NCBI GenBank assembly: GCA_050014355.1
Contig: JBEKDL010000002.1
Coordinates: forward strand, 2,503 to 66,502
Direction of reading: 5' to 3'
From: Dehalococcoidales bacterium
Lineage (GTDB): Bacteria; Chloroflexota; Dehalococcoidia; Dehalococcoidales; RBG-16-60-22
Length of the DNA: 64,000 bases
Every line of letters begins with the position of its first letter. Position 1 is the stretch's first letter. The notes beneath the pieces were generated by a model that worked only from the letters and a program-made list of their open reading frames with translations, ran no database searches and had not been told where the DNA came from. Of this stretch, positions 46,728 to 61,007 are shown piece after piece. The translations under genes were made by a program, and so were the position numbers.

Positions 46728-47021
46728 ATGGCTAAAGATAGAGTATATGCTTTGCCCAACGTCACCACGCCGAGCCGCCCGGTGATATTCACGGATAAGT
46801 GCAAGGGATGTAACCTGTGCGTGGAGGTCTGTCCGGTGGATGTCTACATACCCCACCCCGAGAAGGGTAAAGCGCCGATAATCCTTCACCCCGATGAATG
46901 CTGGTACTGCGGCAGCTGCGTCTACGCGTGCAATATCCCCGGAGCGATCGAGTTCAACTGGCCGCTACAGCAGCGGGGCTACTGGAAAAATAAAGCAACG
47001 GGCAAGGTCTCACGGGCTTAG
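46728..47021 (+). CDS. Small 2x[4Fe-4S] ferredoxin-domain protein (AprB-like partner)
   Basis: 97 aa with CKGCNLCVEVCP and CWYCGSCVYAC. It lies immediately downstream of the flavoprotein. Confidence 0.75.
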   Translation: MAKDRVYALPNVTTPSRPVIFTDKCKGCNLCVEVCPVDVYIPHPEKGKAPIILHPDECWYCGSCVYACNIPGAIEFNWPLQQRGYWKNKATGKVSRA

Positions 47022-47039: not shown

Positions 47040-48479
47040 CTACTTTTTCTTTATCCCGGAAAACCCTAATTTTACCTGCAGCGGCTCGTCGATATACAGG
47101 TACTTGTCAGTCGCTTTGTCCCAGGCCGGCCAGTAAATCAGGTCTTTAACGCTCGGGTTACCCGTCTTCGCAAAGTGCGCCCACATCGCCATCATTTCTT
47201 CGGACACTTTTTTATCAATAGCGGAAAGCTCCGGGTCAACCGCTACAAACGGTGCCGGGGCCGGAGACGTATTCCCTGACCGGGGAGGGGGGGGCCGGTT
47301 CCACCAGCCGGACGTGTTATCGTAATCGCCGAAGACGTAATAAAGCTCCATACCGTGCGGCGCGGACTTGAGCCCAGCTTTCTTCCGCCCGTCCGGCACG
47401 CGGTTGAAGATATAGGCATAGGCTTTGGTCTTGGTTTTTTCCGCGCCTTTGAACATCTCTACGTAAAGCGGAATCATATGCGGCAGGAAAAGTATTGAGC
47501 TGTCATCAGTAATTTCTCCCAGGTTTCCCCCGGCGATAAACGGAACAGCATTATACTTGTCCGAACTTAGAATATTCAGCGCTTTATCCGGCAGGACCCA
47601 GCCGTCCACCGCTTCATCCCATATTCCGATAAGCACATTTTCCTCCCGGCAGAGAGCCGCGTTCGCTTCCAGAATTTGCTGGACAGGCAGGGCGCGGGCC
47701 GCTTTCAAGGGGTGGGCCTCTTTGGCGATGCCGAGTTTGGCGAATAGTCTCTCGCCGAACTGTTCCATGTACTTTAACGAAGCGCCGCTCATGGCGCCGT
47801 CAGGCGGGTTCCAGGCGCTTTCCAGGATAGCCCGTTGAAAAAGCCCTTTCGCTAAAGGACTTGCCATCAGGATGGCCACTTTGGCGCCGCCGCCCGATTC
47901 GCCGAAGATGGTGACGTTATCCGGGTCGCCGCCGAAAGCCGCGATATTTTGCTGCACCCATTTCAGAGCGGCAATCATGTCCAGGAAGATATAGTTCCCC
48001 GAAACACCGATTGAAGATTCGCGGGAAAGTAAAGGATGGCAAAACAGGCCGAGCGCTTCGAGGCGCATGTTGACGGTCACCAGTACCACGCCGTGCCGGG
48101 CCAACCGCGCCGAATTAAAGAGCTTTTCATTGCCGTGACCGCCCGTAAACCCGCCGCCGTGCATGAAGACCATAACCGGCAGATCCTCGGACGCCTTTTG
48201 AGCCGGCGTGACGACATTCAGGTAAAGGCAGTCTTCGCTCTGCGCCAATGGTGTAGTAGGTCCAAAACCAATTAACTGGGGGGTTACCGCGCTATAGGCA
48301 GTGCACTCGCGGATCCCTTGCCAGGGCATGGCCGGTTGCGGCGGCTGCCAGCGAAGTTCTCCCAGGGGCGGAGAGGCGTACGGAATGCCACGATAAGTGC
48401 GCACTTTCTGACCGGCATCGCCAATCATGGTCCCAGAGACATAGCCGTATTCTGTTTTTATCGGGTCCGCGAGCAACAT
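47040..48479 (-). CDS. Type-B carboxylesterase/lipase family protein
   Basis: 479 aa with the oxyanion HGGGF, the nucleophile elbow FGESGGG and an N-terminal IPYASPP motif. Confidence 0.85.
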   Translation of the reverse strand: MLLADPIKTEYGYVSGTMIGDAGQKVRTYRGIPYASPPLGELRWQPPQPAMPWQGIRECTAYSAVTPQLIGFGPTTPLAQSEDCLYLNVVTPAQKASEDLPVMVFMHGGGFTGGHGNEKLFNSARLARHGVVLVTVNMRLEALGLFCHPLLSRESSIGVSGNYIFLDMIAALKWVQQNIAAFGGDPDNVTIFGESGGGAKVAILMASPLAKGLFQRAILESAWNPPDGAMSGASLKYMEQFGERLFAKLGIAKEAHPLKAARALPVQQILEANAALCREENVLIGIWDEAVDGWVLPDKALNILSSDKYNAVPFIAGGNLGEITDDSSILFLPHMIPLYVEMFKGAEKTKTKAYAYIFNRVPDGRKKAGLKSAPHGMELYYVFGDYDNTSGWWNRPPPPRSGNTSPAPAPFVAVDPELSAIDKKVSEEMMAMWAHFAKTGNPSVKDLIYWPAWDKATDKYLYIDEPLQVKLGFSGIKKK

Positions 48480-48647
48480 GCTTTTCCTCCAATCCGGGTA
48501 ACGAAATACAACGCAGTCACATGGTAAATCACCCTATTATCGGTTGTCAATCGCATAATAAAAAAGTATTTCAAAAGGTTGACGCTGCCCCCCTTTTCCC
48601 ATTAGAATTAGCTTTAATTGTGCGCCCGCGTAGCAGCAAGGAGTTTC

Positions 48648-49988
48648 ATGGAAGTAGAGACGAAATGGGACGAGCTGACTCCCGCAGAGAAGCGGGAGAA
48701 GAGGTTCGAGCACTGGCTGGAGGCGCCGGGCGTTAAGTTCGATAGCCCGGAAGCTAAAAAAGGTTATCAGGCCAGGGTCGCCCGCTTAATCAAGGCGCTC
48801 AAGCGGGAAGTACCCGACCGCGTCCCCGTGCAGCTGCCGGCGGGTGGATTCCCGGTCTATTACGCCGGGGCGAACCTCCATCAGGCGATGTACGACCCAG
48901 AGCTGGTGCGCCGGGCCGGGCTGAAATTCGTCCGGGACTTTAAAGACGACATGGACAGCTTCCAGGGCGCCGGTATCAGCTCCGGGAGGCACCTGGAAAT
49001 CATCGATTACAAACTGGCGGCCTGGCCGGGCCGCGGCCTGGGGAAAAACGCCTCCGCTTACCAGTTTGTCGAGGGCGAAAACATGACGGCCGATGAGTAT
49101 GACGCCCTCATCAAAGACCCCTCCGACTGGGCGCTACGGACTTTCCTGCCCCGCGTGGTCAGGGCTTTCGAGCCGCTCACAAACTTACCGCCCCTGGTCT
49201 CATTGTTGAGCATGCCCACGGGGTTCGCGGCCCCGGCGGCTATCCCCGCGGTAAGAGCGGCTTTCCAGGCGATGATTGATGCCGGCATCGAGCAGGAAAA
49301 AATGCTAAAAGCGAACCTGGAAATCGGCCGGGCGGCGCTGATGGCGGGTCTGCCCTCGTTGAGGGGCGCGTCGGGCATGGCGCCCTTCGATATCCTCGGC
49401 GATTTGCTCCGAGGCACCAGGGAGCTAATGATGGACATGTTCCGGCGGCCACAACAAATCCACCGGGCGCTGGATAAAATCACCGAGCTGACCATCGAGC
49501 GCTATAAGACCGTTAGCAGGGATATCAACACCCTCACGGTTACCTTCCCCCTCCATAAAGGCGATGACACGTTCATGTCGGATAAGCAGTTCGCGACATT
49601 CTACTGGCCCACGCTGAAAGAGGTCATTCTGGGGATTATTAAGGAAGGTCTGATGGTGAACCTCTTCGCCGAAGGCAGCTACAATAACCGCTTGAAGCAG
49701 GTCACCGACCTCCCCGAAGGTTGGGTCAACTGGCATTTCGACCGCACGGACATGGCCAGAGCCAAGGAAATCCTCGGTGGGCAATGTTGCATCATTGGCA
49801 ATGTCCCGGCCTCGCTGATGTGCACCGGCACGCCGCAGGCTGTTAAGGACTATTGCCGCAAGCTCCTCGAGACCTGCGGTAAAGGCGGCGGCTACATCCT
49901 GGCCGGCGGCGCCAGCACCTCCCAGACGAACTCGGCCAATTTGAAAGCGATGATGGCCGCCGCGAAAGAGTACGGCGTCTACCATTGA
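48648..49988 (+). CDS. Uroporphyrinogen-decarboxylase (URO-D) superfamily protein
   Basis: The ORF track gives 48618-49988; ATG 48648 with an AAGGAG RBS is preferred. The C-terminal GKGGGYILAGGASTSQTNSANLKAMMAAAKEYG is typical of URO-D/MtaA-like TIM barrels. Confidence 0.65.
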   Translation: MEVETKWDELTPAEKREKRFEHWLEAPGVKFDSPEAKKGYQARVARLIKALKREVPDRVPVQLPAGGFPVYYAGANLHQAMYDPELVRRAGLKFVRDFKDDMDSFQGAGISSGRHLEIIDYKLAAWPGRGLGKNASAYQFVEGENMTADEYDALIKDPSDWALRTFLPRVVRAFEPLTNLPPLVSLLSMPTGFAAPAAIPAVRAAFQAMIDAGIEQEKMLKANLEIGRAALMAGLPSLRGASGMAPFDILGDLLRGTRELMMDMFRRPQQIHRALDKITELTIERYKTVSRDINTLTVTFPLHKGDDTFMSDKQFATFYWPTLKEVILGIIKEGLMVNLFAEGSYNNRLKQVTDLPEGWVNWHFDRTDMARAKEILGGQCCIIGNVPASLMCTGTPQAVKDYCRKLLETCGKGGGYILAGGASTSQTNSANLKAMMAAAKEYGVYH

Positions 49989-50028
49989 AATCGGACTCAT
50001 ACTTGAAATGTGAAGGAGGGTACGGAAA

Positions 50029-50937
50029 ATGGCCAGGACTAAATACGGGCACCTGGTGAAAAAGCTCCCGTTCGCTTATGATAAAAGCGGCTACCGGCAG
50101 GGCACGAAGCTAGACGGTGCTTTCCTGGGGATGGATGTGCATATCAAATACGGCGCTTACTGGTCGGCGGGCAGGGTGGGTGAAGCGCCTTACGGCATCC
50201 ACAAGCATAATTTCAACCAGGTTTTGCTCTGGTTGGGCGCCGATTGCCATGATTTAAGCGAGCTGGGGGCCGAAATCGAGCTAAGCCTGGGAGACAAAAA
50301 GGAAAGGGACAGACACGTTTTTACGTCCTCGTCCGCCGTCTATATTTCTAAGGCGTTTCCGCATTTCCCCGCCACGATTAACCGGATGGACAAGCGCTTT
50401 ATCTACCTGGAAATTTCCCAATCTCCCGAATGTAAGACCAGAGCGGTTCCTGCGAGCCAGGCCGCCGCTGGAGAAGCCCCGCTGGCCACCTGGTTTTCCA
50501 AAAACAGCAAGCGTGTTTCCCACCTGACTTTCCACCGCAAGAGTGCCTGGCATTACGGCCCTCTCAACCGGGACGATTCCGGCGGCTCGATTGCCGAGCT
50601 CCATTGCCCGGACTTCCCGTTCGGCATGATGTGGGAAAGCATCCGGAAAGCGCCTTACCGCTTCGGGCCGGTCCCGGATAAGCCGCACGTCCATACCTAT
50701 AACGAGTTCCTCTTTTTCATCGGTGCGGATACCGACGATTTGTCCCATCTTGGTGCGGAAGTTGAAATGTATATGGGCAGAGAAGGCGAAAAACACGTTA
50801 TCACCGAGCCCACCGTCGTCTTCCAGCCCCGGGGCTTTCCGCACTGTCCGCTCGTGGTGACGAAGATTGAAAAACCGTTTATTTTCTCCGTTGTTTACCC
50901 GTTCGGCACCGCCGCCCAGCAACAGCCCGGGGCATGA
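50029..50937 (+). CDS. Uncharacterised protein with two tandem cupin-like modules
   Basis: 302 aa. Each half contains HxHxxx[EQ]-x5-G-x8-LGAE[IV]E[LM]x[LM]G...H[VI]...F[P]HxP. It has a strong GAAGGAGGG RBS. Confidence 0.6.
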   Translation: MARTKYGHLVKKLPFAYDKSGYRQGTKLDGAFLGMDVHIKYGAYWSAGRVGEAPYGIHKHNFNQVLLWLGADCHDLSELGAEIELSLGDKKERDRHVFTSSSAVYISKAFPHFPATINRMDKRFIYLEISQSPECKTRAVPASQAAAGEAPLATWFSKNSKRVSHLTFHRKSAWHYGPLNRDDSGGSIAELHCPDFPFGMMWESIRKAPYRFGPVPDKPHVHTYNEFLFFIGADTDDLSHLGAEVEMYMGREGEKHVITEPTVVFQPRGFPHCPLVVTKIEKPFIFSVVYPFGTAAQQQPGA

Positions 50938-50988
50938 TTGATTAATCTGGATGACAACCGATAAAGTAGATAAAGGAGGCATTTAAGC

Positions 50989-51501
50989 ATGGCGGAAAAA
51001 ACGAAATACGGCAAATACTTCATCGAGTACGACCCCACCCGGTGGCCTAAAGAGCGCCGCCCGGTGATGGTGCGCATGGAAGAGAGCGTCATGAAGGGGA
51101 GCCATTTCTATCTGGTACACTGGGTCATGCCCGGTTTTGCCAAACCCCTCGGCGAGTACAAGTACGCCGGCCACCCGCCGCACATTCATAAGGACGCCGA
51201 GCTCCTTATCCACATCGGCACGAACCCGGACGACCCCATGGACCTGGGCGCGGAGGTGGAGATGTATATGGGCCCGGAGCTGGAGAGGCACGTTTTCAAC
51301 CGGACGTGCTGCATCTACATCCCGCCGAATTTCATCCACGCCCCCTGGCGGCCGATTAATACTATCCGCCCCTGGATATTCATTGAAATCAATCAGGGGC
51401 CGTCCCATACTGAAAAATCGTACCGGCAGATATTGCCCGCCGAGACCAGGGAGAAGATTGACTGGTCGCGCTGGCCGGACGAGGGCTACGATACCCCCTG
51501 A
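50989..51501 (+). CDS. Uncharacterised single cupin-like module protein (paralog)
   Basis: 170 aa with HIHKDAELLIHIGTNPDDPMDLGAEVEMYMGPELERHVF...IYIPPNFIHAP. It has an AAAGGAGG RBS. Confidence 0.6.
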   Translation: MAEKTKYGKYFIEYDPTRWPKERRPVMVRMEESVMKGSHFYLVHWVMPGFAKPLGEYKYAGHPPHIHKDAELLIHIGTNPDDPMDLGAEVEMYMGPELERHVFNRTCCIYIPPNFIHAPWRPINTIRPWIFIEINQGPSHTEKSYRQILPAETREKIDWSRWPDEGYDTP

Positions 51502-51540
51502 AATCCCGCGATTTTTACTTTAAAAGTTGAGGAGGTTAAT

Positions 51541-51753
51541 GTGGCTTATAAAATTAATGTCAAGAAATGCCTCAAGTGCGGCCTCTGCGCTGTGGAGTGC
51601 CCGGAAAAGGCGATTGTGGTGGATGAGAGAGTTAACGAGAAGGATGGCCTGGTGCGCTATGCGACCAGGATTGATATCAAAAAATGCACCGACTGCGGCA
51701 CCTGTGTTTCTTACGAGTGGTGGTGCCCGGCCAAGGCCATTTCAAAGGGGTAA
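51541..51753 (+). CDS. 2x[4Fe-4S] ferredoxin
   Basis: 70 aa with a GTG start and a GAGGAGG RBS. The cluster motifs are CLKCGLCAVECP and CTDCGTCVSYEWWCP. Confidence 0.8.
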   Translation: MAYKINVKKCLKCGLCAVECPEKAIVVDERVNEKDGLVRYATRIDIKKCTDCGTCVSYEWWCPAKAISKG

Positions 51754-51759
51754 AATTGA

Positions 51760-52254
51760 ATGGCTCGACTTAAATACAGCAAGTACTTTCTAAACGAGCT
51801 TACGCCCGAGGAGCGGTATAAAGGCTACGGTAAAATGCCGTCGATGGTGACTTTTACGGACCATGACATTATCGCCGGCAGCTACTATTTTTCCGCCATG
51901 GTCATGGGTCCGCGCGCTATCGGCCGGGGACACGGACCCCATACCCATAAAGACCCGGAAATCCTCGTGGCGCTCGGTACGGACCCGGACCATCCCGAAG
52001 AACTGGGCGCGGAAATCGAGCTTTGCATGGGACCGGAGATGGAAAAGCATATCATTACTACCTCTACGCTGGTCTTCATTCCGGCCAATTTCGTGCACTG
52101 TCCCTTCCGCGTGATGAAAGTGACCCGGCCATTCCTTTTTATCCAGTCACAGTACGCGCCCAAACTGACCGAGACCGCGTTGAAAAAGCTGTTGGCCCGG
52201 GCGGAGCGCGATAAAATGATTTTCCTCGATGCGGATGGCACACAGAAGGACTGA
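51760..52254 (+). CDS. Uncharacterised single cupin-like module protein (paralog)
   Basis: 164 aa with HTHKDPEILVALGTDPDHPEELGAEIELCMGPEMEKHII...VFIPANFVHCP. Confidence 0.6.
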   Translation: MARLKYSKYFLNELTPEERYKGYGKMPSMVTFTDHDIIAGSYYFSAMVMGPRAIGRGHGPHTHKDPEILVALGTDPDHPEELGAEIELCMGPEMEKHIITTSTLVFIPANFVHCPFRVMKVTRPFLFIQSQYAPKLTETALKKLLARAERDKMIFLDADGTQKD

Positions 52255-52270
52255 ACAGGACGGTAATAAC

Positions 52271-53470
52271 TTAGACCATCCAGTTTAAGGATTGCACGAG
52301 GCGGTACAGTTCGATTTTGTTCTTGACGCCGAGTTTCCGGTAGATATTCTTAATGTGGGTATGCACGGTCAGCTTGCTGATATAGAGCTTTTCAGCGGTC
52401 TCTCTGTAAGACATATCTGAAATAATGCAGTAGATAATATCAACTTCTCTATGGCTTAAATGGTATCTGGACTGCAGGTTGGTTTCCAGCCGGTTCTTGC
52501 CGGTAAGGTCGGTTAAAGTTACCATAAAGTTAGGCACCGAGTGCATTTTATCGGCTTTCCAGACCAGCGAGCATTCGCTTCGGAACTGCTTGCCGCTTTC
52601 GGAAAATACCACTCTTTCCTTCGGCCAGGAGATGAACTGTGACTCCGCATTGATCAAATTCAACAGCTCCGAGCAGTCTTGAATGACGCAAGCTGGCACG
52701 GGAAACTCGCCTTTCTCGATGTTTACGGCATCAGACGGCATTTTGTTATACAGATAAAGGCAAATTTCCCGGGCTTTAGCATTGGAATAGACCGGGCGGA
52801 AGCGATGGTCCAACAACAAAAGGCCGTCATTATTCATTTCGTCGGTGGAGGATTTTTTTCTCCAGCCGTTGATTTTAGAAATGGTGCTGATGTTGTGTAT
52901 GGCGAGGGTAAGGTGGGGTGCGAGTATCTCGGCCCGCGCGATATCGCTTGGCTCATAGTCGGTGTATTCGCGGGGGCGCCAGAGCGTAATCATGCCCTCA
53001 AGGTTGTTTTTCCAGCGAAAGGTGAGAAACAGCTCCCAGTATAGGTGCTGCGGCAGGATAAAATCGTTATAGTAGCTGGAGCTTTCCCAGTCCTTGCAGG
53101 AAATCGAATTGCCGATTTTTAAGACTGTTTTGGTGGAAGATATCGCCGCTTTCAGCAGGGGGGATTGCTGGAAATATCCGTCCTTATATAACGCCGGGTA
53201 GTGTTTATCTTCAACTAAGTTGTGGAAGTCCGATTTGAACGACCGGGACTCGACGACGTTCACGCGCCAGGGGAATCCCTTGATAAGGTGAAAAGTAACG
53301 CATTCGGAGCGGAACGAGCGTATCATGGCCTGGCAAAGTGTGCCGACTAGGCTCTCTACGTCTTGGCAGCGGTTAGCGGTATATACCAGGTCCAGTATCT
53401 CGCGGAGGTCCCTGCTGGAAACAACGGCCATATGCGATTTTATATCACTTTTCTTTTCACATGTCAACAA
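52271..53470 (-). CDS. LuxR-family transcriptional regulator with an uncharacterised N-terminal sensor region
   Basis: The C-terminal HTH is LSHREVDIIYCIISDMSYRETAEKLYISKLTVHTHIKNIYRKLGV. The start is either TTG 53470 or ATG 53431. Confidence 0.8.
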   Translation of the reverse strand: MLTCEKKSDIKSHMAVVSSRDLREILDLVYTANRCQDVESLVGTLCQAMIRSFRSECVTFHLIKGFPWRVNVVESRSFKSDFHNLVEDKHYPALYKDGYFQQSPLLKAAISSTKTVLKIGNSISCKDWESSSYYNDFILPQHLYWELFLTFRWKNNLEGMITLWRPREYTDYEPSDIARAEILAPHLTLAIHNISTISKINGWRKKSSTDEMNNDGLLLLDHRFRPVYSNAKAREICLYLYNKMPSDAVNIEKGEFPVPACVIQDCSELLNLINAESQFISWPKERVVFSESGKQFRSECSLVWKADKMHSVPNFMVTLTDLTGKNRLETNLQSRYHLSHREVDIIYCIISDMSYRETAEKLYISKLTVHTHIKNIYRKLGVKNKIELYRLVQSLNWMV

Positions 53471-53491
53471 AATACCCTGTTCAGGGTATTT
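53470..53491. promoter_or_regulatory. 22-bp palindrome AAATACCCTG-tt-CAGGGTATTT (candidate operator)
   Basis: Perfect 10-bp arms read directly, at the 5' edge of the LuxR gene and facing the divergent ABC operon. Confidence 0.5.
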
Positions 53492-53680
53492 AAATTCACG
53501 TTTATTTGTGCCATACTTCTGATAATCGATAATGATTTGATGGGACTAGCTTTGTTTGGACAATGTTTCAAATAATAAAAAGCAGGTACGCGCTTATAGT
53601 ATTGAGAAAGTGTGTCTAATATTTGCGATTTCCAGGTTTTTGAAATATAACCTTAAATATTATTTAGTTCGTTGATTTAT

Positions 53681-53709
53681 TTGACAAATCGCTCGATAGT
53701 TTTCATAAT
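53681..53709 (+). promoter_or_regulatory. Sigma70-like promoter TTGACA-N17-CATAAT for the ABC/ligase operon
   Basis: TTGACA is at 53681-86 and CATAAT at 53704-09, about 70 nt upstream of the first ORF. Confidence 0.45.
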
Positions 53710-53778: not shown

Positions 53779-54039
53779 GTGGTAAACTGGCAGGTCACTG
53801 CGACCACGATTTACTGTGATGCTATCGACGATGACGTCACGCTGATTGTCGATAAAGACTGGAACGTGCAGTGCACCGGTTTTAAAAAATACTCTGCAGA
53901 TCTTGATAAGGCCACTGCCAGGGCGCTCAAGCAAAGGTCACGCAAGCTCGGTAAGAATCTTAAATGCGAAGGCCCTCTCGATTACAGGGTCACCGATTAC
54001 CGGGATAAGCTTAAAGCACAGGAAAAACCCAGACCTTAA
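53779..54039 (+). CDS. Small hypothetical protein (86 aa, 3 Cys, basic C-terminus)
   Basis: GTG start with an AGGAG RBS 10 nt upstream. It is the first ORF of the operon. I recognise no family. Confidence 0.5.
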   Translation: MVNWQVTATTIYCDAIDDDVTLIVDKDWNVQCTGFKKYSADLDKATARALKQRSRKLGKNLKCEGPLDYRVTDYRDKLKAQEKPRP

Positions 54040-54073
54040 ATGGTCAACTAAAGGTTCCAGAAGGGGCGCTACC

Positions 54074-54910
54074 TTGGATACGGCAGTCCGGAAACCAGTC
54101 AAAATAAGAATCGATAACGTTTCACTAAGCTTCGGCGGCGTCAGGGCCCTGATTGACGTCAGCGCAGAAATCCGGGATAAAGAGATACTGGCCATCATCG
54201 GGCCTAACGGTGCCGGTAAGACCGCTCTCCTCAACTGTATCAACGGGTTCTATAAACCTCAAAAAGGCGAGATTTATTTCGAGGGCCGCAGAATCACCCG
54301 CATGCGCCCGGATAAACTCGCCAAGATGGGCATCTCCCGTACCTTCCAGAACATCGAGCTGTATACCGGCTTGAGCACGCAGGACAATATCATGGCTGCC
54401 CGGCACGTGCTCATGAAGCAGACCTTCGTTACCGGCGCCCTGTACTTCGGCCCGGCGCACCACGAAGAAATCGAGCACCGCCATACTGTCGAGGAGATAA
54501 TCGATTTCCTGGAAATTGAAGCCCTCCGTAAAACCCCGGTCGGCGTGCTGCCCTACGGTATGCGCAAAAGGGTCGAGCTGGGCCGGGCTTTAGCCCTGGA
54601 GCCGCAGGTACTGCTCCTCGATGAGCCGATGGCAGGCATGAATTTGGAGGAAAAGGAAGACATCGCCCGCTTCATCATCGATATCTTCGAAGGACAGGGA
54701 GACACTTACCCGGATACCCCCGTCCTGAAAAACGGCATCAGCTGCATCGTCCTGGTGGAGCATGACATGGGCGTGGTGATGGATATCGCGGATAGGATTG
54801 TCGTCCTGGATTTCGGGAAGAAAATAGCTGAAGGCACCCCCACCGAGATTAAAGCCAACCCGGAGGTAATTAACGCCTACCTGGGGCAGGCGGTTGAAGC
54901 GGAGAAATAG
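54074..54910 (+). CDS. Branched-chain-amino-acid-type ABC transporter ATP-binding protein (LivG-like)
   Basis: The ORF track gives 53846-54910. I prefer TTG 54074 (in frame, after the small ORF's stop, with a GAAGGGG RBS). It has GPNGAGKT and LLLDEPMAGMN. Confidence 0.8.
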   Translation: MDTAVRKPVKIRIDNVSLSFGGVRALIDVSAEIRDKEILAIIGPNGAGKTALLNCINGFYKPQKGEIYFEGRRITRMRPDKLAKMGISRTFQNIELYTGLSTQDNIMAARHVLMKQTFVTGALYFGPAHHEEIEHRHTVEEIIDFLEIEALRKTPVGVLPYGMRKRVELGRALALEPQVLLLDEPMAGMNLEEKEDIARFIIDIFEGQGDTYPDTPVLKNGISCIVLVEHDMGVVMDIADRIVVLDFGKKIAEGTPTEIKANPEVINAYLGQAVEAEK

Positions 54911-54926
54911 CCTTGAAGATAATGAT

Positions 54927-55721
54927 ATGTTGCAAGTAAACAACATCGAAGTCTTTTACATGAACGTTATCCAGGTACTGCGCGGCGTATCGCTGGAGGT
55001 GGGCGACGGGCAAATTGTCGCTCTGCTGGGAGCTAACGGCGGCGGCAAAACGACGGTGCTGAAGGCAATATCCGGGATGTTGAAAACGGAGGAGGGAGAA
55101 GTAACCAACGGCAGCATCGTCTTTAACGGCCAGCGCATCGACAGAAAAGGGCCGGAGGACATCGCGGTGCTCGGCATCAGCCAGGTGATGGAGGGGCGGA
55201 GGGTGTTGGGGCACCTTAACGTCGAAGAAAATCTGCTTATCGGGGCTTACCGCCGCAAGGACCGCTCCGCTGTTAAGAAGGACCTGGAGATGGTTTTCGA
55301 TTATTTCCCCAAGATTAAGAATTTCCGGCGCCGGACGAGCGGCTATCTCTCCGGCGGGGAACAGCAGATGATGGTCATCGGCCGGGGGCTCATGGCCATT
55401 CCCGAGCTTATGCTGCTGGACGAACCTTCACTCGGTCTGGCCCCGCTGATGGTGCAGGAAATATTCGAGATTATACGCCGTATCAATACGGAGCAGAAAA
55501 TGTCCATTCTCCTGGTGGAGCAGAATGTCCGGGCGGCGCTCGGTATCGCCCATCACGGTTATGTCATGGAGAACGGCAGGATTGTCATGGAGGGACCGGC
55601 CGATAAGTTGAGGAATAATGAGGACGTCAGGGAATTTTATATGGGGCTGTCGGCCGTGGGTTCACAGAGAAGCTATCGCGACGTCAAGCATTACCGGCGG
55701 AGGAAGAGATGGCTAGCCTAG
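54927..55721 (+). CDS. ABC transporter ATP-binding protein (LivF-like)
   Basis: ATG 54927 (MLQVNNIEVFY). It has GANGGGKTT, LSGGEQQM and LLDEPSLGL, plus a basic C-terminal tail, KHYRRRKRWLA. Confidence 0.85.
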   Translation: MLQVNNIEVFYMNVIQVLRGVSLEVGDGQIVALLGANGGGKTTVLKAISGMLKTEEGEVTNGSIVFNGQRIDRKGPEDIAVLGISQVMEGRRVLGHLNVEENLLIGAYRRKDRSAVKKDLEMVFDYFPKIKNFRRRTSGYLSGGEQQMMVIGRGLMAIPELMLLDEPSLGLAPLMVQEIFEIIRRINTEQKMSILLVEQNVRAALGIAHHGYVMENGRIVMEGPADKLRNNEDVREFYMGLSAVGSQRSYRDVKHYRRRKRWLA

Positions 55722-57679
55722 CGGTCAGGCCAGGCGGGTTCGTTCCCGGGACCGAGCGGGTCGGACAGGAAAAGGGTGAGACCTGGCCCCAGATACTGAA
55801 ATATAACTATGAAAAGTATGGAGATGAACATATCGCCATACGCTATAAGCGCCGCGGCATCTGGCAGGCATCCAGCTGGAAAGACTACTATCTCGAGGTC
55901 AAGTATCTCGCGCTTGGCCTCTTATCGCTGGGGTTCCAACCGGGGGACAAGTTGCTGGTCATCGGCGATAATGCTCCCCAGTGGTATTATGCGGAGTTAG
56001 CTGCCCAGGCCAACCACGGCGTTTCGGTAGGGCTGTATTCCGACCTGACGCCGCAGGAAATAAAATATATCGCTGCTAATTCCGAATCCAGATTTGCCGT
56101 GGTGGAAGACCAGGAGCAGGTCGATAAGTTCCTCCAGATTAAAAGTGAGCTTCCCGGGCTGGAGAAAATTATCTACTGGCGCTATAAAGGCATATCCGGA
56201 TACAATGACGCTTCCTTGATGGGCTATCGGCAGGTACAGGAAACAGGACAAAAATATGAAGCCGAGCACCCCGGGGTATTTGAGCAGAATATCGCCGACG
56301 GGAAAGCCAGCGACGTTTGCGCCATTGTTTATACTTCCGGGACGACCGGTGATGTGCCCAAGGGCGCCGTCCACACCTACGCGACGCTGCAACCGGGGGC
56401 GGAATATTTCCTGCATCTCGACCCGTGGTATGATAATGATAATATCGCCACTTACATGCCGCCGGCCTGGATAACCGAGCAGTGGCTGGGCATCGGGTGC
56501 CATCTGCTATCCGGCGGTATATTGAACTTCGCGGAGAGGCCGGAGACACAACAGCAGGACATCCGGGAGATAGGACCGGATATTATATTTTACAGCTCGC
56601 GTATCTGGGAGCGGCAGGCGGTCACGGTACAGGCAAGGATGCAGGGCGCCGATTTCTTTAAAAAGATGGTTTACCGCCTGTTCATGCCGGTAGGCTATAG
56701 ACTGGCCGATGCCAGGTTGAAACGGCAAAAACCCGGCGTCTTAGATAAAATACTTTATCCCCTGGCTGATTTGCTGGTATTGAGACCCCTGCGGGATAAT
56801 CTCGGCCTGCCAAACGCCCGGGTCTGTTACGCTATCGCCTCCCCGCTAAGCCCGGAGGCGATCAGGTTCTACCACGCCTTGAATGTGCCCCTGAAAAACC
56901 ACTACGGCCTGACGGAAGGCGGCACGGTCTCCTGCTCCCGCACAGATGATATCAAACTGGAGACAGTCGGCACCATTCCCCGTGGGGCGGAGGTAAGGAT
57001 TACCGGCCGCGGTGAGCTTCTCTGCCGGCAGCCCGGCGTTTTTCAGGGCTATTACCGCGACCCCGTTAAGACGGCCGCATCTTTAAAAGACGGCTGGTTT
57101 TACAGCGGAGATAGCGCCCTTATCAATGAAGAGGGGCACGTGGTCTTTTTAGACAGATTGAAAGACCTTGTCGAGATGAGCTGCGGTGACAGACTGGCCC
57201 CCCAGCTGATTGAAAGCCAGCTCAAGTTCAGTCCGTACATCAGGGACGCCTGGGTGCTGGCCGGGCCGGAGAAGGCTTATGTCTCGGCCATCATTATCAT
57301 CGACTTCGATAATGTCAGCCGGTGGGCCGATCGCAAACGCGTTAATTACACCACTTTCAACGATCTGTCCCAAAAACCGGAAGTCTACGAGCTTATCCGG
57401 CAGGAAATCGAAAGGACGAACAGGTCCCTCGCGCCGGGCTGCCGCATCATGAAGTATACGAACCTGCACAAGGAGTTTGACCCGGACGAGTCCGAACTGA
57501 CTCGCAACCGGAAACTGAAAAGGCAGTTTATCGAGGAGCGCTACCGCGAAGTTATCCGGGCGATATACAGCGATAAGACCGAGGCCGCCATCGAAGCGCA
57601 AATAAAATACCGTGACGGAAGGACGGGTACAATCACGACTGTTATCGGCATTAAATCGGTCGGGGAGTTAAAGGAATGA
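55709..57679 (+). CDS. Long-chain-type AMP-dependent acyl-CoA synthetase embedded in the ABC operon
   Basis: 656 aa with YTSGTTGDVPKG and GWFYSGD. It overlaps livF by 13 nt and livH by 4 nt. Confidence 0.85.
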   Translation: MASLAVRPGGFVPGTERVGQEKGETWPQILKYNYEKYGDEHIAIRYKRRGIWQASSWKDYYLEVKYLALGLLSLGFQPGDKLLVIGDNAPQWYYAELAAQANHGVSVGLYSDLTPQEIKYIAANSESRFAVVEDQEQVDKFLQIKSELPGLEKIIYWRYKGISGYNDASLMGYRQVQETGQKYEAEHPGVFEQNIADGKASDVCAIVYTSGTTGDVPKGAVHTYATLQPGAEYFLHLDPWYDNDNIATYMPPAWITEQWLGIGCHLLSGGILNFAERPETQQQDIREIGPDIIFYSSRIWERQAVTVQARMQGADFFKKMVYRLFMPVGYRLADARLKRQKPGVLDKILYPLADLLVLRPLRDNLGLPNARVCYAIASPLSPEAIRFYHALNVPLKNHYGLTEGGTVSCSRTDDIKLETVGTIPRGAEVRITGRGELLCRQPGVFQGYYRDPVKTAASLKDGWFYSGDSALINEEGHVVFLDRLKDLVEMSCGDRLAPQLIESQLKFSPYIRDAWVLAGPEKAYVSAIIIIDFDNVSRWADRKRVNYTTFNDLSQKPEVYELIRQEIERTNRSLAPGCRIMKYTNLHKEFDPDESELTRNRKLKRQFIEERYREVIRAIYSDKTEAAIEAQIKYRDGRTGTITTVIGIKSVGELKE

Positions 57680-58569
57680 CCTTCTTTCTGCAGTTAGTGG
57701 TATCCGGGGTCGGACTGGGCATGATTTATGCTCTGATCGCTCTCGGTTTTGTCATCATCCTCAAATGTTCCAAGGCTTTTAATATTGCCCAGGGACAGTT
57801 CGTGATGTTAGGCGGTTACCTGGGTTTTACTTTCCTGCTGAACTTCCATCTTCCGGCCTGGATCAGCCTGCTGGCAGCTATCGCTATCGGGGTTGTTTTA
57901 GGTTTGGCAATAGAGCGTCTGGCCTTACGTCCCCTGGTAGGCCAATCGGTGCTGTCTGTTATCATGATGACCATCGCCTTGTCTACGGTTTTGGAAGGGG
58001 TAGGCGTCCTGATATGGGGAGGTATATATGAGCCGTACAAGGGAGGGCTTCCGACTTTTAGCCTACCTCCCGTGGGGGGCGTCTCCATCTCGCCAGAGAC
58101 ATTAGATGGGATTATTCTTTCGGCGATAGTCGTGATTGCGCTGATGGGTATTTTCCGTTACACCAAGATCGGGCTGGCGATGCGGGCCACCGCCGAGGAT
58201 GAAAAAGTAGTACAGAGTGTCGGCATCAAGGTGACCACTGTTTATGCCATATCCTGGGTAATTGCCTGTGTCGTCGGCGTTGTCAGCGGCATGCTTTTAT
58301 ACAGCATTTCGGGGGTTCAGCAAACCATGTCTGATATCGGCTTGAAGGCGTTTGCTGTAGTGCTGCTGGGAGGGGTAGACTCCATCGGCGGGGCGATAAT
58401 CGCCGGGATTATCCTGGGCATACTGGAGAATGTCGCGCCAGGGTATCTGGATCCACTTTTACCAAGCGGCGGCGGCCTGGCCAATGTTTTCCCCTTTATT
58501 GTCATGATAGTCGTACTAATTTTCAAGCCCCACGGTCTCTTCGGCACGGCCAGGATTGAAAGGATTTAA
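57676..58569 (+). CDS. ABC transporter permease (LivH-like)
   Basis: 297 aa and multi-pass, with a typical LivH start, QLVVSGVGLGMIYALIALGF. Confidence 0.85.
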   Translation: MTFFLQLVVSGVGLGMIYALIALGFVIILKCSKAFNIAQGQFVMLGGYLGFTFLLNFHLPAWISLLAAIAIGVVLGLAIERLALRPLVGQSVLSVIMMTIALSTVLEGVGVLIWGGIYEPYKGGLPTFSLPPVGGVSISPETLDGIILSAIVVIALMGIFRYTKIGLAMRATAEDEKVVQSVGIKVTTVYAISWVIACVVGVVSGMLLYSISGVQQTMSDIGLKAFAVVLLGGVDSIGGAIIAGIILGILENVAPGYLDPLLPSGGGLANVFPFIVMIVVLIFKPHGLFGTARIERI

Positions 58570-58577
58570 AAAAACCT

Positions 58578-59621
58578 ATGAGTTTACCGAGCGGCATATT
58601 TCAGGGAAGCTTCGGACAGGATATGGCTATCTTCCGCACCAAAACGCAGTGGCTTTTACTACTGCTTTTACTGGTCTTTGTCTTTACCATGCCTTTGTAC
58701 TCCAGCGACAAGACCATCACCACAGTAACTATCATAGGTATCACGATAATCTCGGTACTGGGGCTGAATATTCTCACCGGCTATTGCGGGCAAATATCGA
58801 TGGGCCACGCCGGTTTTATGGCCGTCGGCGGCTATACCGCGGCCGTTCTCATGGCCAAACTGCATTTACCATTTTTGGTTTCCGTGCCGGCCGCCGGCCT
58901 GGGTGCCGGTATCGTGGGCATTATCTTCGGTCTCCCATCGCTGAAAATCAAAGGTTTTTACCTGATAATGTCCACCATCGCCGCCCAGTTTATTGTGATA
59001 TGGCTCATTATCCAGATGCGCGGCGTAACCGGCGGAGCGGATGGTATGTCCGTGCCCCGGCCGGAAATTTTCGGGCTTGCCATCACCAGTAAAGCCAGTT
59101 ATTTTATTCTGGTTATGATTTTAACTTGTCTGGCGACTTATTTAGCCAAAAATATCGTCCGCACCAGGGTCGGGCGGGCTTTTATCGCCATCCGTGATAA
59201 CGACCTTGCCGCTGAAGTCATGGGCGTAAACCTCTTGTATTATAAGTTGACCGCATTTTTCATCGGTTGTGTTTATGCCGGTGTGGCCGGTTCGTTGATG
59301 GTAAATTACATCCACTTCGCTAATACAGAGCAGTTCCCCTTCATTAACTCGGTCTGGTATCTGGGAATGCTCATTGTCGGGGGTATGGGAAGCACGGTGG
59401 GCGTTATCTTCGGCGTGGTGGCTATCAAGCTGCTGGAACAGTTAGCAACGACCATCGGTCCGGTGCTGGCGAATATCTTCGTGCCCCAGGTGGCGGCCTC
59501 GCTCGCTCTTATCTTGGATGGGCTAGTCATTATCCTGTTCCTTATCTTTGAGCCTAGAGGACTGGCCCACCGTTGGGAGATGATTAAAGCTTATTACAGG
59601 CGTTGGCCTTTCTCACAATAA
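58578..59621 (+). CDS. ABC transporter permease (LivM-like)
   Basis: 347 aa and multi-pass, with GYCGQISMGHAGFMAVGGY typical of LivM. Confidence 0.85.
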   Translation: MSLPSGIFQGSFGQDMAIFRTKTQWLLLLLLLVFVFTMPLYSSDKTITTVTIIGITIISVLGLNILTGYCGQISMGHAGFMAVGGYTAAVLMAKLHLPFLVSVPAAGLGAGIVGIIFGLPSLKIKGFYLIMSTIAAQFIVIWLIIQMRGVTGGADGMSVPRPEIFGLAITSKASYFILVMILTCLATYLAKNIVRTRVGRAFIAIRDNDLAAEVMGVNLLYYKLTAFFIGCVYAGVAGSLMVNYIHFANTEQFPFINSVWYLGMLIVGGMGSTVGVIFGVVAIKLLEQLATTIGPVLANIFVPQVAASLALILDGLVIILFLIFEPRGLAHRWEMIKAYYRRWPFSQ

Positions 59622-59708
59622 AAAGGAATAACATGGAAAGGAGGTGGTAGATTCAAATAAACACAATTGAAATCGAAGCTAGACCGAATTTAAATGGAAG
59701 GAGAGAAA

Positions 59709-61007
59709 ATGTCTAAAATCAAGTATTTATTAGTATTTACGCTATTGATTCTGGTATCGATGTCCGTACTTACCGCCTGTACTTCAACGAAGACAACGAC
59801 AACGACAACTACCTCGACAACGGCAGCCGCGCAAACGATGTACATCGGCGGCACCTTCGCGATAACGGGCGCTTACGCCGAGGATACTACCGCAGTCCTT
59901 AACGGCTTCCTGGATTATGCGAAATATGTCAATGATAACCACATTATCGCCCCCTGGTACACCGATAGGACACTCCCCAGCAATGTAACCGTACAGGTGC
60001 TCTGGGGCGACGACCAGCTCGCGGCGGATAAAGCCCTGACTATCTATGATGACCTCAAATCCAAGGGTCTCCTGGTGGAGAGGGTAAGTTCTACCGCGGA
60101 AGGCCTGGCGCTGAAAGAAAAAATGAATTCGGACCGTGTTGGCGCCACCAGCCAGGCTACTTCACCGGCTTATCTCTCCCCGCCGGAAACTATCTTCACC
60201 AACGCCCCGATTTATACCGATTCTCTGGCCGGGGCGGCCGATTGGTTTATGCAGAACTGGAAAGGCACCGCTAAGCCCAGGGTAGCTTACCTCACCGCCG
60301 ATATGGCCTCGGGCAGGTCCATCGATATTCCGGAAATGCAGGCTTATCTGGAGAAGGCCGGATTTGAGTTCGCCGGTAAGCAGTTCCCACCGCTGGTTCC
60401 GACCACGCCGCCGACCACCCAGCTTTCATGGTTAAAGGATAACAAAGTTGACCTGGCAATTGGCTTTATGGTTAACGGCGGTTCGCAGCCAACCATCAAG
60501 GAAGCGGTCAGGCTGGGCATGGGTACCGACCAGCCCTACAAGATAACCTTCGCTTTCGCTAACCCGTCCCACCTCCAGATATTTGTCCCCGCTATGGGCA
60601 CCACGGGCAACGGCGTCGTGGTCACCGGCGATTTCGTTGCCTGGGAATCCAACGTCGCTGGCGTCCAGTTCGCCAATGCTTTGAACGCCAAGTACCGCGC
60701 CGGTAACCCGGTCACGAACATCATGTACCTGGATGGCATCATCGAGGGGATGACCCAGGTCGAAGCCCAGAGACTGGCCATGGCCCAGACCGGCAAGACG
60801 GTGTCCCAGTTGAAACCGGTTGATGTCCTGGAATATGGCTACTACAACATCAAGGACTTCAGCGATGGTGATATCACCATCACGCCATTAAACTATGGCC
60901 CTGGTCAGGTTTGTGGTGTGAGTAAAGTCCGCATTCAACAGGTACAGAACGGCAAGATTGTTGAAGTCGGCTCTGCCCCGCTCCATAACATCTACAAGCA
61001 CGAATAG
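59709..61007 (+). CDS. ABC transporter substrate-binding lipoprotein (type I periplasmic binding fold)
   Basis: ATG 59709 with a GGAAGGAGAG RBS. It has the lipobox LTAC followed by a poly-Thr linker, TKTTTTTTTSTT. Confidence 0.75.
   Translation: MSKIKYLLVFTLLILVSMSVLTACTSTKTTTTTTTSTTAAAQTMYIGGTFAITGAYAEDTTAVLNGFLDYAKYVNDNHIIAPWYTDRTLPSNVTVQVLWGDDQLAADKALTIYDDLKSKGLLVERVSSTAEGLALKEKMNSDRVGATSQATSPAYLSPPETIFTNAPIYTDSLAGAADWFMQNWKGTAKPRVAYLTADMASGRSIDIPEMQAYLEKAGFEFAGKQFPPLVPTTPPTTQLSWLKDNKVDLAIGFMVNGGSQPTIKEAVRLGMGTDQPYKITFAFANPSHLQIFVPAMGTTGNGVVVTGDFVAWESNVAGVQFANALNAKYRAGNPVTNIMYLDGIIEGMTQVEAQRLAMAQTGKTVSQLKPVDVLEYGYYNIKDFSDGDITITPLNYGPGQVCGVSKVRIQQVQNGKIVEVGSAPLHNIYKHE

What the first reader, a model, noticed from the sequence alone, without database searches (positions are those of the whole stretch)
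50029..52254. Four copies of an uncharacterised cupin-like module in three adjacent ORFs, with a ferredoxin
The same roughly 150-aa module occurs four times in three back-to-back ORFs: twice fused in 50029-50937, and once each in 50989-51501 and 51760-52254.

The core aligns by eye:
- HKHNFNQVLLWLGADCHDLSELGAEIELSLG..RHVF...VYISKAFPHFP
- HVHTYNEFLFFIGADTDDLSHLGAEVEMYMG..KHVI...VFQPRGFPHCP
- HIHKDAELLIHIGTNPDDPMDLGAEVEMYMG..RHVF...IYIPPNFIHAP
- HTHKDPEILVALGTDPDHPEELGAEIELCMG..KHII...VFIPANFVHCP

HxH-x3-E-x5-G plus a later His is the cupin 3-His/1-Glu metal-site layout. The invariant LGAE[IV]E[LM]x[LM]G block and the shared MAxxKY N-termini are not from any cupin family I can name. One module has Gln in place of the Glu.

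A 2x[4Fe-4S] ferredoxin is wedged between the paralogs. All genes have strong RBSs and gaps of only 6-52 nt, so they look like one operon. The arrangement suggests a hetero-oligomeric, redox-linked metalloenzyme of unknown reaction.
Basis: partly seen in the sequence, partly recalled or inferred. Interest (0 to 1): 0.72.

Follow-up and report, generated by a model that had tools for sequence, protein, structure and literature searches.

The report
Ferredoxin-linked family of unannotated cupin proteins
Three adjacent genes really do encode four copies of a metal-binding cupin barrel from a large family that no curated library describes, and these cupins are partnered with, and sometimes fused to, their own iron-sulfur ferredoxin in uncultured anaerobic bacteria and archaea, which points to an unknown oxygen-independent redox enzyme.

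Summary
There are four paralogous ~150-aa modules: a two-module protein (50029-50937), a 170-aa "A" protein (50989-51501) and a 164-aa "B" protein (51760-52254). A 2x[4Fe-4S] ferredoxin (51541-51753) sits between A and B.

- **Fold.** AlphaFold2 models plus Foldseek give a cupin for B and an oxalate-decarboxylase/vicilin-type bicupin for the fusion. Identity to these structures is only 9-10%.
- **Annotation.** No module protein hits Pfam or NCBIfam, and PDB sequence searches give nothing significant. Homologues are named "hypothetical" or given a generic cupin or ferredoxin label.
- **Family size.** The family spans about 1,200 clusters at 50% identity. The ligand set H-x-H-x3-E/Q...H is conserved, as are LGAExE and GxExE blocks.
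- **Ferredoxin link.** A-Fd-B is collinear in about 40 of 80 genome loci (Dehalococcoidales). A+Fd also occurs in a Bathyarchaeia and a Spirochaetes MAG, Fd+B and bicupin+Fd pairs occur, and Fd-A and A-Fd fusions recur.
- **Upstream gene.** It resembles CdmB, a corrinoid-dependent methyltransferase I, but no corrinoid protein lies in the window. Such genes flank the cupins in 10 of 80 loci.
- **Oligomer.** An obligate hetero-oligomer is unlikely, because A and B each occur without the other.

Best reading: ferredoxin-coupled mononuclear-metal cupin enzymes of an inducible anaerobic catabolic operon. The substrate is unknown. It is a new variant of a known kind.

The parts
48618..49988 (+). URO-D-fold protein of the corrinoid-dependent methyltransferase I type (CdmB-like). 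First gene of the putative operon. The true start may be the ATG 30 nt downstream.
   Evidence: Pfam URO-D 5e-25, C-terminal half only. NCBIfam MtaA/CmuA hits lie below cut-off. PDB 9rui CdmB E 1.7e-34; CdmB is the MT I of the chloromethane system (PMC13222342). A promoter-like site lies at 48579-48608. Homologues lie next to the cupins in 7-8 of 80 genome loci.
50029..50937 (+). Bicupin, 302 aa. The N module (about 50029-50481) has a degenerate metal site (H-x-H-x3-Q here; the first His is not conserved in orthologues). The C module (about 50482-50937) has a complete H220/H222/E226/H272 site.
   Evidence: AF2 pLDDT 88.7, pTM 0.88. Foldseek top hits are oxalate decarboxylase, MncA and vicilins, E about 1e-11, TM 0.57-0.59. 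No Pfam or NCBIfam hit.
50989..51501 (+). A-type single cupin, 170 aa. Metal motif HIHKDAE at residue 65 and FIHAP at about residue 115.
   Evidence: 354 homologues, none with a functional name, including a Bathyarchaeia, a Nitrososphaerota and a Spirochaetes MAG. It is the member found next to or fused with the ferredoxin.
51541..51753 (+). Dedicated 2x[4Fe-4S] ferredoxin, 70 aa, GTG start. Family signature C-x2-C-x2-C-x3-[ED]-[WY]-W-C-P-A-x-A-I.
   Evidence: Pfam Fer4, Fer4_6, Fer4_7 and others above cut-off. Orthologues lie between A and B in 48 of 80 loci. The signature is conserved in 42 orthologues and in the L174 and L175 copies.
51760..52254 (+). B-type single cupin, 164 aa. Site H61/H63/E67/H113. 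Acid block LGAE85-I-E87 and G-P-E93-M-E95-K-H97.
   Evidence: AF2 pLDDT 79.6. Foldseek finds generic cupins only, including MarH, Ni-quercetinase and DddK. 58-88% identical orthologues occur in Dehalococcoidales, Acidobacteriota and Desulfobacterota MAGs.
52271..53470 (-). LuxR/GerE-type regulator with an unannotated ~330-aa N-terminal domain, convergent on the operon. Candidate regulator.
   Evidence: Pfam GerE 6e-14. Orthologues are conserved downstream of the cupins in the closest loci: adjacent in L001-L004 and L013, 0.6 kb away in L011 and 3.6 kb away in L012.
53846..61007 (+). Liv/Bra-type ABC uptake system, context only. It comprises two ATPases (53846-55721), an unscanned 656-aa ORF, two unscanned permease-like ORFs, and a Peripla_BP_6 binding protein (59694-61007).
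   Evidence: ABC_tran is recorded for the identical genes in L001. Peripla_BP_6 5e-22. The same transporter type adjoins the cupin-Fd genes in the Fd-A fusion locus and in L175. An ABC ATPase cluster of the window's type lies near the bicupin in 8 of 79 bicupin loci.
50200..50238 (+). Motif 1 of module 1 (HKHNFNQVLLWLG), with Gln in place of Glu.
   Evidence: for degeneracy in orthologues.
50686..50724 (+). Motif 1 of module 2 (HVHTYNEFLFFIG).
   Evidence: H220, H222 and E226 are invariant in 40 orthologues.
51181..51219 (+). Motif 1 of the A-type cupin (HIHKDAELLIHIG).
51940..51978 (+). Motif 1 of the B-type cupin (HTHKDPEILVALG).
   Evidence: H61, H63 and E67 are invariant in A3.

Best explanation
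The three proteins belong to a large, uncurated family of cytoplasmic cupin metalloproteins. Each intact module binds one metal ion (Fe, Ni or Mn; not determined) through two His and a Glu of H-x-H-x3-E and a His of P-x-G-x-x-H. The two-module protein folds as an OxdC/vicilin-type bicupin with one intact site and one degenerate site.

The small 2x[4Fe-4S] ferredoxin is a dedicated partner. I infer that it docks on, or in some lineages is fused to, the cupin. It would pass single electrons between the cell's low-potential pool (for example from AFOR or 2-oxoacid:ferredoxin oxidoreductases) and the metal-bound substrate. This would allow a redox conversion that needs no O2.

The operon looks like a substrate-induced catabolic unit for an imported organic acid. 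It has a regulator, a Liv-type ABC transporter, an esterase and a methyltransferase-I-like gene. In this peat Dehalococcoidia genome the substrate is plausibly a plant- or lignin-derived aromatic acid or a 2-oxo acid.

- **Shown:** the repeat, the fold, the ligand conservation, the Fd linkage and fusions, and the absence of annotation.
- **Inferred:** the electron transfer, the direction of the reaction, the substrate class, and any A/B/bicupin hetero-complex.
For: **Fold and site**
- fold; ligand conservation.

**Ferredoxin linkage**
- A-Fd-B is collinear in about 40 of 80 GTDB genome loci, and a ferredoxin homologue lies at the cupin genes in 48 of 80.
- Fd+B occurs without A in about 6 loci.
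- A+Fd is found in a Bathyarchaeia MAG (L174). A+Fd and bicupin+second Fd are both found in a Spirochaetes MAG (L175).
- A ferredoxin homologue lies near the bicupin in 6 of 79 metagenome loci.
- Fusions occur in both orders: the P0138 cluster (19 members, 246 aa, Fd-A), P0147 (Fd-A), L057 7184-7960 (A-Fd) and P0552.
- The ferredoxin carries its own conserved signature, EWWCPAKAI.

**Redox operon elsewhere**
- L005 has AFOR-ThiS-cupin-cupin-Fer4(386 aa)-bicupin-cupin, with gaps of 104 nt or less.

**Catabolic flavour**
- LuxR, TetR or GntR regulators and Liv-type ABC systems lie beside the cupin-Fd genes in three unrelated lineages.
- The gene spacing is operon-like and no + strand terminator is present.
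Against: - No experiment or complex model links the ferredoxin clusters to the cupin metal.
- B-type cupins stand alone, without a ferredoxin, in about 27 of 80 loci (Acidobacteriota, Desulfobacterota). Most bicupin loci also lack one. Electron transfer is therefore not universal in the family.
- Most characterised small cupins nearest in fold are non-redox or O2-dependent (MarH epimerase, sugar isomerases, DddK).
- Neighbourhoods beyond the cupin-Fd core vary widely, so no substrate can be derived.
- The ferredoxin's charge is not conserved: median pI 5.7, against 8.6 here. This gives no docking argument.
Confidence: 0.45

Rival explanations
1. The cupins are redox-neutral enzymes. Candidates are a keto-enol tautomerase, epimerase, isomerase or decarboxylase acting on a metal-chelated 2-oxo acid or sugar. 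On this view the ferredoxin serves neighbouring oxidoreductases rather than the cupins.
For: - The best small-cupin structural matches are MarH (rmsd 1.8 Å over 92 columns) and the 7eqk epimerase/lyase. These are also the only cupins in the PDB profile search, at a non-significant E of 0.5-1.
- Single members give marginal hits to cupin-type phosphoglucose isomerase.
- B and the bicupins often lack a ferredoxin.
- Recurrent neighbours handle 2-oxo or 2-hydroxy acids and aldehydes: an IOR-like protein in 19 loci, Ldh-like genes, an OYE enoate reductase in 26, TPP enzymes, AFOR and CoA_transf_3.
Against: - Ferredoxin-cupin gene fusions occur in both orders, in a cluster of 19 members.
- In Bathyarchaeia the A+Fd pair has no other oxidoreductase beside it.
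- A second ferredoxin lies right after the bicupin in L175.
- The ferredoxin has a distinctive conserved signature.

These features are hard to explain if the ferredoxin serves other enzymes.
Confidence: 0.25
2. The cupins are accessory partners of the methyltransferase-I-like enzyme. They might act as a methyl acceptor, a substrate-presenting subunit or a reactivation module that replaces the missing corrinoid protein and activase, with the ferredoxin supplying the reactivating electron.
For: - The upstream gene resembles CdmB (E 1.7e-34).
- No B12-binding protein was found among the ORFs of the 64-kb window that were scanned with Pfam. This covers all but a few transporter-operon and small ORFs.
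- Of 10 URO-D-like genes within ±8 kb of the cupins, 7 are immediately adjacent and 1 is a single small ORF away. They occur in three orientations and two phyla.
Against: - 70 of 80 loci have no such gene nearby.
- The A+Fd pairs in Spirochaetes and Bathyarchaeia lack it.
- No corrinoid-binding motif is evident, and no precedent is known to me for a cupin in this role.
Confidence: 0.1
3. The system detoxifies oxygen or reactive oxygen species in strict anaerobes. It would be a ferredoxin-fed metal cupin acting as a superoxide or O2 reductase, comparable to germin-type SOD activity.
For: - B is highly conserved across phyla (58-88% identity) and often sits in unrelated contexts, as stress genes do.
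- Germin/OxdC-type cupins have Mn-dependent superoxide chemistry (my own knowledge).
Against: - Regulators of catabolic type and ABC uptake systems sit beside the genes.
- There are up to seven paralogous modules per locus, with an AFOR.
- No rubredoxin, rubrerythrin or peroxidase partner is present at the cupin genes. Hemerythrin and hybrid-cluster genes lie 7-10 kb away in L007.
Confidence: 0.08

Closest known systems
Oxalate decarboxylase OxdC / MncA / 7S vicilins (Cupin_1-type bicupins)
   Same: The 302-aa protein is predicted to adopt the same two-barrel arrangement (Foldseek E about 1e-11, TM 0.57-0.59). Its C module has the 3-His/1-Glu ligand set used for Mn in OxdC (my own knowledge).
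   Different: - Identity is only 9-10%, and there is no Pfam Cupin_1 hit.
- The N-module site is degenerate.
- The hosts are anaerobes, whereas OxdC needs O2.
- The acid blocks (LGAExE, GxExE), the N-terminal K-Y motif and the ferredoxin partner are specific to this family.
MarH and the 7eqk non-haem-iron epimerase/lyase (small cupins; MarH acts on a β-substituted arylpyruvate)
   Same: These are the best local structural fit to the B-type cupin (rmsd 1.8-2.4 Å over about 90 columns). They are also the only cupins in the PDB profile search.
   Different: - E values of 0.5-1 are not significant.
- Those enzymes are about 120-130 aa, lack the ~55-residue N-terminal arm, and have no ferredoxin partner in the entries retrieved.
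Cupin-type phosphoglucose isomerase (PF06560) and pirin/YhhW
   Same: The H-x-H...E...H cupin site is shared. Sequence hits are marginal: GPI E 0.017 for one member, 1j3p E 1.1, and YhhW/quercetinase E 1.2.
   Different: No hit reaches any curated threshold. These families show no ferredoxin linkage.
CdmB / MtaA-type corrinoid-dependent methyltransferase I (upstream gene only)
   Same: URO-D TIM-barrel homology, E 1.7e-34 to CdmB (PMC13222342).
   Different: - No corrinoid protein, MT II or activase lies in the window.
- NCBIfam MtaA/CmuA scores are far below cut-off.

Membership tests
Cupin superfamily | Small β-barrel (jelly-roll) fold | tested here: met
   AF2 models have pLDDT 79.6 and 88.7. 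All the listed top Foldseek PDB hits are cupins or bicupins.
Cupin superfamily | Motif 1: G(x)5-H-x-H-(x)3-4-E-(x)6-G | tested here: met
   H-x-H-x3-E/Q-x5-G is present in all four modules, with the spacing to Gly one residue shorter. It is conserved across 153 diverse domains.
Cupin superfamily | Motif 2: G(x)5-P-x-G-(x)2-H-(x)3-N | tested here: inconclusive
   P-x-[GN]-x-x-H-x-P is conserved (P108 97%, H113 93%). The terminal Asn is replaced by a conserved Pro two residues after the His.
Curated cupin families (Pfam Cupin_1/2/3..., GPI, Pirin, Auxin_BP; NCBIfam) | Score above the family's gathering cut-off | tested here: not met
   The three window proteins have 0 families at E<=1, apart from a spurious FliW hit at E 0.15. 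Among 42 diverse members the best are single hits at E about 0.02.
Oxalate decarboxylase / germin family | Bicupin fold with Mn bound by 3 His + 1 Glu in both domains, and an O2-dependent reaction | tested here: not met
   The fold is similar. Only the C module keeps the full ligand set, and sequence identity is 9-10%. Metal identity and O2 dependence are not testable here.
2x[4Fe-4S] clostridial-type ferredoxin | Two Cys motifs (CxxCxxCxxxCP) and a Pfam Fer4 score above cut-off | tested here: met
   Fer4 36.5 bits (cut-off 21.1) and Fer4_7 36.8 (cut-off 27). The second motif is CxxCxxCx6CP.
Corrinoid-dependent methyltransferase system (MT I + corrinoid protein + MT II + activase) | An MT I homologue accompanied by a B12-binding corrinoid protein | tested here: not met
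   The MT I homologue is present. No B12-binding domain was found among the ORFs of the 64-kb window that were scanned with Pfam. A partner encoded elsewhere in the genome cannot be excluded.
   Co-occurrence is not obligatory: B occurs alone in about 27 of 80 loci, A+Fd occurs without B in L174 and L175, and bicupins mostly stand alone or in tandem. Physical interaction is not testable with these tools.

The most novel reading that the evidence does not exclude
The cupin-ferredoxin modules are an anaerobic counterpart of O2-dependent cupin enzymes. A dedicated [4Fe-4S] ferredoxin would replace O2 as the one-electron partner of a mononuclear metal. This would enable radical-type C-C, C-O or decarboxylation chemistry on plant-derived acids. 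In this operon the module may work with a methyltransferase-I-like enzyme that has no corrinoid protein. If so, this would be a new mechanistic class of ferredoxin-dependent metalloenzyme, widespread in uncultured Dehalococcoidales and also present in Bathyarchaeia, Spirochaetes, Acidobacteriota and Desulfobacterota MAGs.
Probability: 0.15. Interest if true: 0.85.

Novelty: new variant of a known kind. Interest (0 to 1): 0.6.

Why it matters
- **Scale and annotation gap.** The family has about 1,200 clusters at 50% identity, 702 of them at E<1e-10. It has no Pfam, NCBIfam or PDB representative and no cultured host. The MAGs that carry it come from groups found in peat and sediment.
- **Unprecedented partnership.** I know of no characterised cupin that has a dedicated ferredoxin, sometimes fused to it. 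My searches of the paper library also found none.
- **Mechanistic reach.** Finding the reaction could reveal how O2-free organisms perform chemistry that aerobes do with cupin oxygenases.
- **Practical gain.** It would give function to several genes per genome in Dehalococcoidales MAGs that are now labelled "hypothetical".
- **Testability.** The operon is only 2.2 kb, has a clear partner ferredoxin, and can be expressed anaerobically.

Tried and rejected
- **Curated libraries.** Pfam and NCBIfam on each protein and on 42 diverse members found no cupin family. PDB sequence and profile searches found nothing significant.
- **Neighbourhood analysis.** I looked for a substrate through neighbours in 80 genome and 80 metagenome loci. 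Beyond the ferredoxin and other cupins, no neighbour is present in more than about a third of loci.
  - The OYE homologues (26 loci) and the ADH/SnoaL/IOR block (17-22 loci) are largely lineage synteny.
  - DUF169, CoA_transf_3, AFOR, TPP enzymes and Steroid_dh each occur in 10% or fewer.
- **Split-bicupin idea.** I tested whether A and B are the split halves of the bicupin (A like the N module, B like the C module). This is rejected: A and B are each other's closest relatives, and both bicupin modules are closer to B.
- **Ferredoxin docking.** I tested whether a basic ferredoxin docks on the conserved Glu block. This is rejected because ferredoxin charge is not conserved.
- **Apparent fusion in L052.** The Fd-B "fusion" there is an artefact of a masked N run.
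- **Split flavoprotein gene.** A selenocysteine reading is rejected because the stop codon is TAA.
- **RNA elements.** No riboswitch or other Rfam element lies in the window.
- **Literature.** Searches for cupin with ferredoxin, Dehalococcoidia, URO-D or AFOR found nothing relevant.
- **Not possible here.** I could not inspect model coordinates. Whether the four conserved Glu face the barrel interior remains open.
Full report
**1. Observation**

- 50029-50937 (302 aa)
- 50989-51501 (170 aa, here "A")
- 51541-51753 (70 aa, GTG start)
- 51760-52254 (164 aa, here "B")

Splitting the 302-aa protein in two and aligning it with A and B gives 20 invariant columns. Pairwise BLASTP among the four modules gives E from 2e-13 to 4e-36. 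A and B are each other's closest relatives (36% identity over 160 aa). Both halves of the fusion are nearer to B than to A.

Gaps are 40, 51, 39 and 6 nt, with GGAGG-type ribosome-binding sites. No terminator-like site lies on the + strand from 48300 to 53700, and a promoter-like site lies at 48579-48608. The window holds no further module of this family.

**2. Fold and site**

AlphaFold2 on an alignment of 36 B-type sequences gives a β-rich model (pLDDT 79.6). Its PDB neighbours are all cupins:
- MarH, rmsd 1.8 Å over 92 columns
- Ni-quercetinase
- DddK
- archaeal PMI and PGI
- seed globulins

These matches are weak (E about 1e-3, TM 0.35-0.46).

The 302-aa protein models confidently (pLDDT 88.7, pTM 0.88). 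It matches whole bicupins: oxalate decarboxylase OxdC (E 8e-12, TM 0.57-0.59), MncA, vicilins and quercetinase, at 9-10% identity.

Conservation across 153 domains from diverse family members:

| Position (B numbering) | Conservation |
|---|---|
| H61 | 81% |
| H63 | 95% |
| E67 | 70% (Gln in a further 22%) |
| H113 | 93% |
| P108 | 97% |

Family-specific blocks are also conserved: L-G-[AG]-E85-x-E87, G91-x-E93-x-E95-x-[HY], [RK]-P124, and an N-terminal K5-Y6.

In 40 orthologues of the fusion, the C module keeps H220, H222, E226 and H272 invariant. The N module keeps only H60, Q64 and H112. The protein therefore has one intact and one degenerate site, as many bicupins do.

**3. Not a described family**

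- Pfam and NCBIfam give no hit at E<=1 for the three proteins, apart from a spurious FliW hit at E 0.15.
- Of 42 diverse members scanned one by one, none reaches a cupin model's threshold. The best are GPI, Cupin_2 and Auxin_BP, each in a single member at E about 0.02.
- PDB sequence and profile searches give only E of about 0.07 and weaker, and the best of these is a non-cupin β-fructosidase.
- The listed homologues (120 of the roughly 350-400 found per search) are unnamed, "hypothetical", or at best "uncharacterized RmlC-like cupin family protein".
- A profile search of 1.84 billion representatives finds 1,194 clusters at E<=1e-3 and 702 at E<=1e-10. Many are two-module proteins of about 300 aa.
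- Literature searches found nothing on such a system.

**4. Hosts**

The closest genomic loci are Dehalococcoidia/Dehalococcoidales MAGs (78-87% identity for B; one is labelled a fen MAG). Further B orthologues, at 58-70% identity, lie in Acidobacteriota, Desulfobacteraceae and Desulfatiglandales MAGs. A-type proteins also occur in Spirochaetes, Bathyarchaeia and Nitrososphaerota MAGs. No cultured host appeared.

**5. The ferredoxin is a dedicated partner**

- In 80 species-level genome loci, a homologue of the 70-aa ferredoxin lies at the cupin genes in 48.
- The order A-Fd-B is collinear in about 40 loci. Fd-B occurs without A in about 6, and B occurs alone in about 27.
- A+Fd recurs in a Bathyarchaeia MAG, arranged as DUF169, A, Fd, MFS (L174).
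- A+Fd also recurs in a Spirochaetes MAG (L175). The order there is GntR, A, Fd, Liv-type ABC, bicupin, a second Fd, a CoA-transferase and an ADP-forming acyl-CoA synthetase.
- Fusions exist in both orders: the P0138 cluster (19 members, Fd-A), P0147 (Fd-A), L057 7184-7960 (A-Fd) and P0552.
- The ferredoxin has its own signature, C-x2-C-x2-C-x3-[ED]-[WY]-W-C-P-A-x-A-I.
- L005 carries a tight operon: AFOR-ThiS-cupin-cupin-Fer4 protein-bicupin-cupin.

Together these results argue that electrons pass between the ferredoxin and the cupins. This is an inference; nothing here measures it.

**6. Other context**

The upstream 456-aa gene has a URO-D fold. Its best solved relative is CdmB, the corrinoid-dependent methyltransferase I of the chloromethane system (E 1.7e-34; PMC13222342).

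No B12-binding protein was found among the window ORFs scanned with Pfam, which covers all but a few transporter-operon and small ORFs.

URO-D-like genes lie within ±8 kb of the cupins in 10 of 80 loci. Seven are immediately adjacent and one is a single small ORF away. They occur in three orientations, in both Chloroflexi and Acidobacteriota. With about 14 genes per window, random placement would make roughly 14% adjacent (my estimate). The link is therefore real but occurs in a minority of loci.

Regulators and Liv-type ABC uptake systems flank cupin-Fd genes in three unrelated lineages:
- LuxR in this window
- TetR at the Fd-A fusion locus
- GntR in L175

This gives the unit a substrate-induced catabolic character.

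Other neighbours are either lineage synteny or infrequent:
- OYE enoate reductase (26 loci)
- Zn-ADH (22 loci)
- IOR-like protein (19 loci)
- SnoaL (17 loci)
- Ldh-like genes, DUF169, CoA_transf_3, a TPP enzyme and AFOR (infrequent)

Many of these act on 2-oxo or 2-hydroxy acids, enoates or aldehydes. This is a hint about the substrate class, not a result.

**7. Mechanism**

My best reading (confidence 0.45) is ferredoxin-coupled mononuclear-metal cupin enzymes that carry out an O2-independent redox step on an imported organic acid.

Rivals:
- Redox-neutral MarH-like or isomerase-like cupins, with the ferredoxin serving other enzymes (0.25). This is weakened by the fusions and by the minimal A+Fd pair in archaea.
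- An accessory or acceptor module for the corrinoid-protein-less methyltransferase-I-like enzyme (0.10). This is weakened because 70 of 80 loci lack that gene.
- Oxygen or ROS defence (0.08).

An obligate A/B/bicupin hetero-oligomer is not supported by co-occurrence. A local complex in Dehalococcoidales remains possible.

**8. Verdict**

The family is uncurated, widespread and unusually tied to a ferredoxin. Fold and metal site are of a known kind, so I rate it a new variant of a known kind, with interest 0.6. The reaction, the metal and the quaternary structure remain unknown.

Noticed in passing
window 44767-46716 (+), with 46728-47021: An FAD_binding_2 / Succ_DH_flav_C flavoprotein is split into two same-frame ORFs (357 and 290 aa) by a single TAA at 45838-45840. 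A 97-aa 2x[4Fe-4S] ferredoxin follows. It may be a pseudogene, a sequencing error or a genuinely split gene. It is not selenocysteine.
   Followed up: partly
window 48618-49988: The methyltransferase-I-like (CdmB-like) gene has no corrinoid protein, MT II or activase among the ORFs of the 64-kb window that were scanned. It is an orphan MT I.
   Followed up: partly
L005 13665-20100: A seven-gene minus-strand operon: AFOR, ThiS-like, cupin (143 aa), cupin (153 aa), a 386-aa Cys-rich Fer4 protein, bicupin (309 aa) and cupin (157 aa). A divergent 144-aa cupin lies beside it. All the cupins start with MAxxKY.
   Followed up: partly
L174 7078-7881; L091 4259-5011; L098 3922-4836 and 7 other loci: DUF169 (COG2043) genes recur next to A-type or bicupin genes. 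They occur in 8 of 79 bicupin loci, some with a Tat signal.
   Followed up: no
L082 6317-7789; L087 6265-7791 (7 loci): A 490-508-aa protein lies immediately upstream of the solo B-type cupin, seen in two Desulfobacterota MAG loci (L082, L087) and five others. The L082 copy has a Tat-like signal, and neither copy scanned has a Pfam hit.
   Followed up: no
window 14690-19583: An AMP-binding ligase lies beside two HGD-D subunits and a BcrAD/BadFG activator. This is a 2-hydroxyacyl-CoA dehydratase-type system.
   Followed up: no
window 24000-28300: A low-GC stretch (0.42-0.48, against about 0.55-0.59 around it) contains several ORFs with no Pfam hit. It may be an acquired island.
   Followed up: no
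window 39073-41775: A 900-aa fusion of Oxidored_FMN, Fer4_20 and Pyr_redox_2 (enoate/dienoyl-CoA reductase type). Homologues occur within 8 kb of the cupins in 26 of 80 genome loci. This is probably lineage synteny.
   Followed up: partly
window 30723-33653 (-): A P-type ATPase with an N-terminal cupredoxin-like domain plus HMA and C-terminal YHS domains. It is likely a copper exporter with an unusual domain set.
   Followed up: no
L052 2088-2870: An apparent Fd-B fusion ORF that spans a run of masked N bases. It is an artefact, not a fusion.
   Followed up: yes
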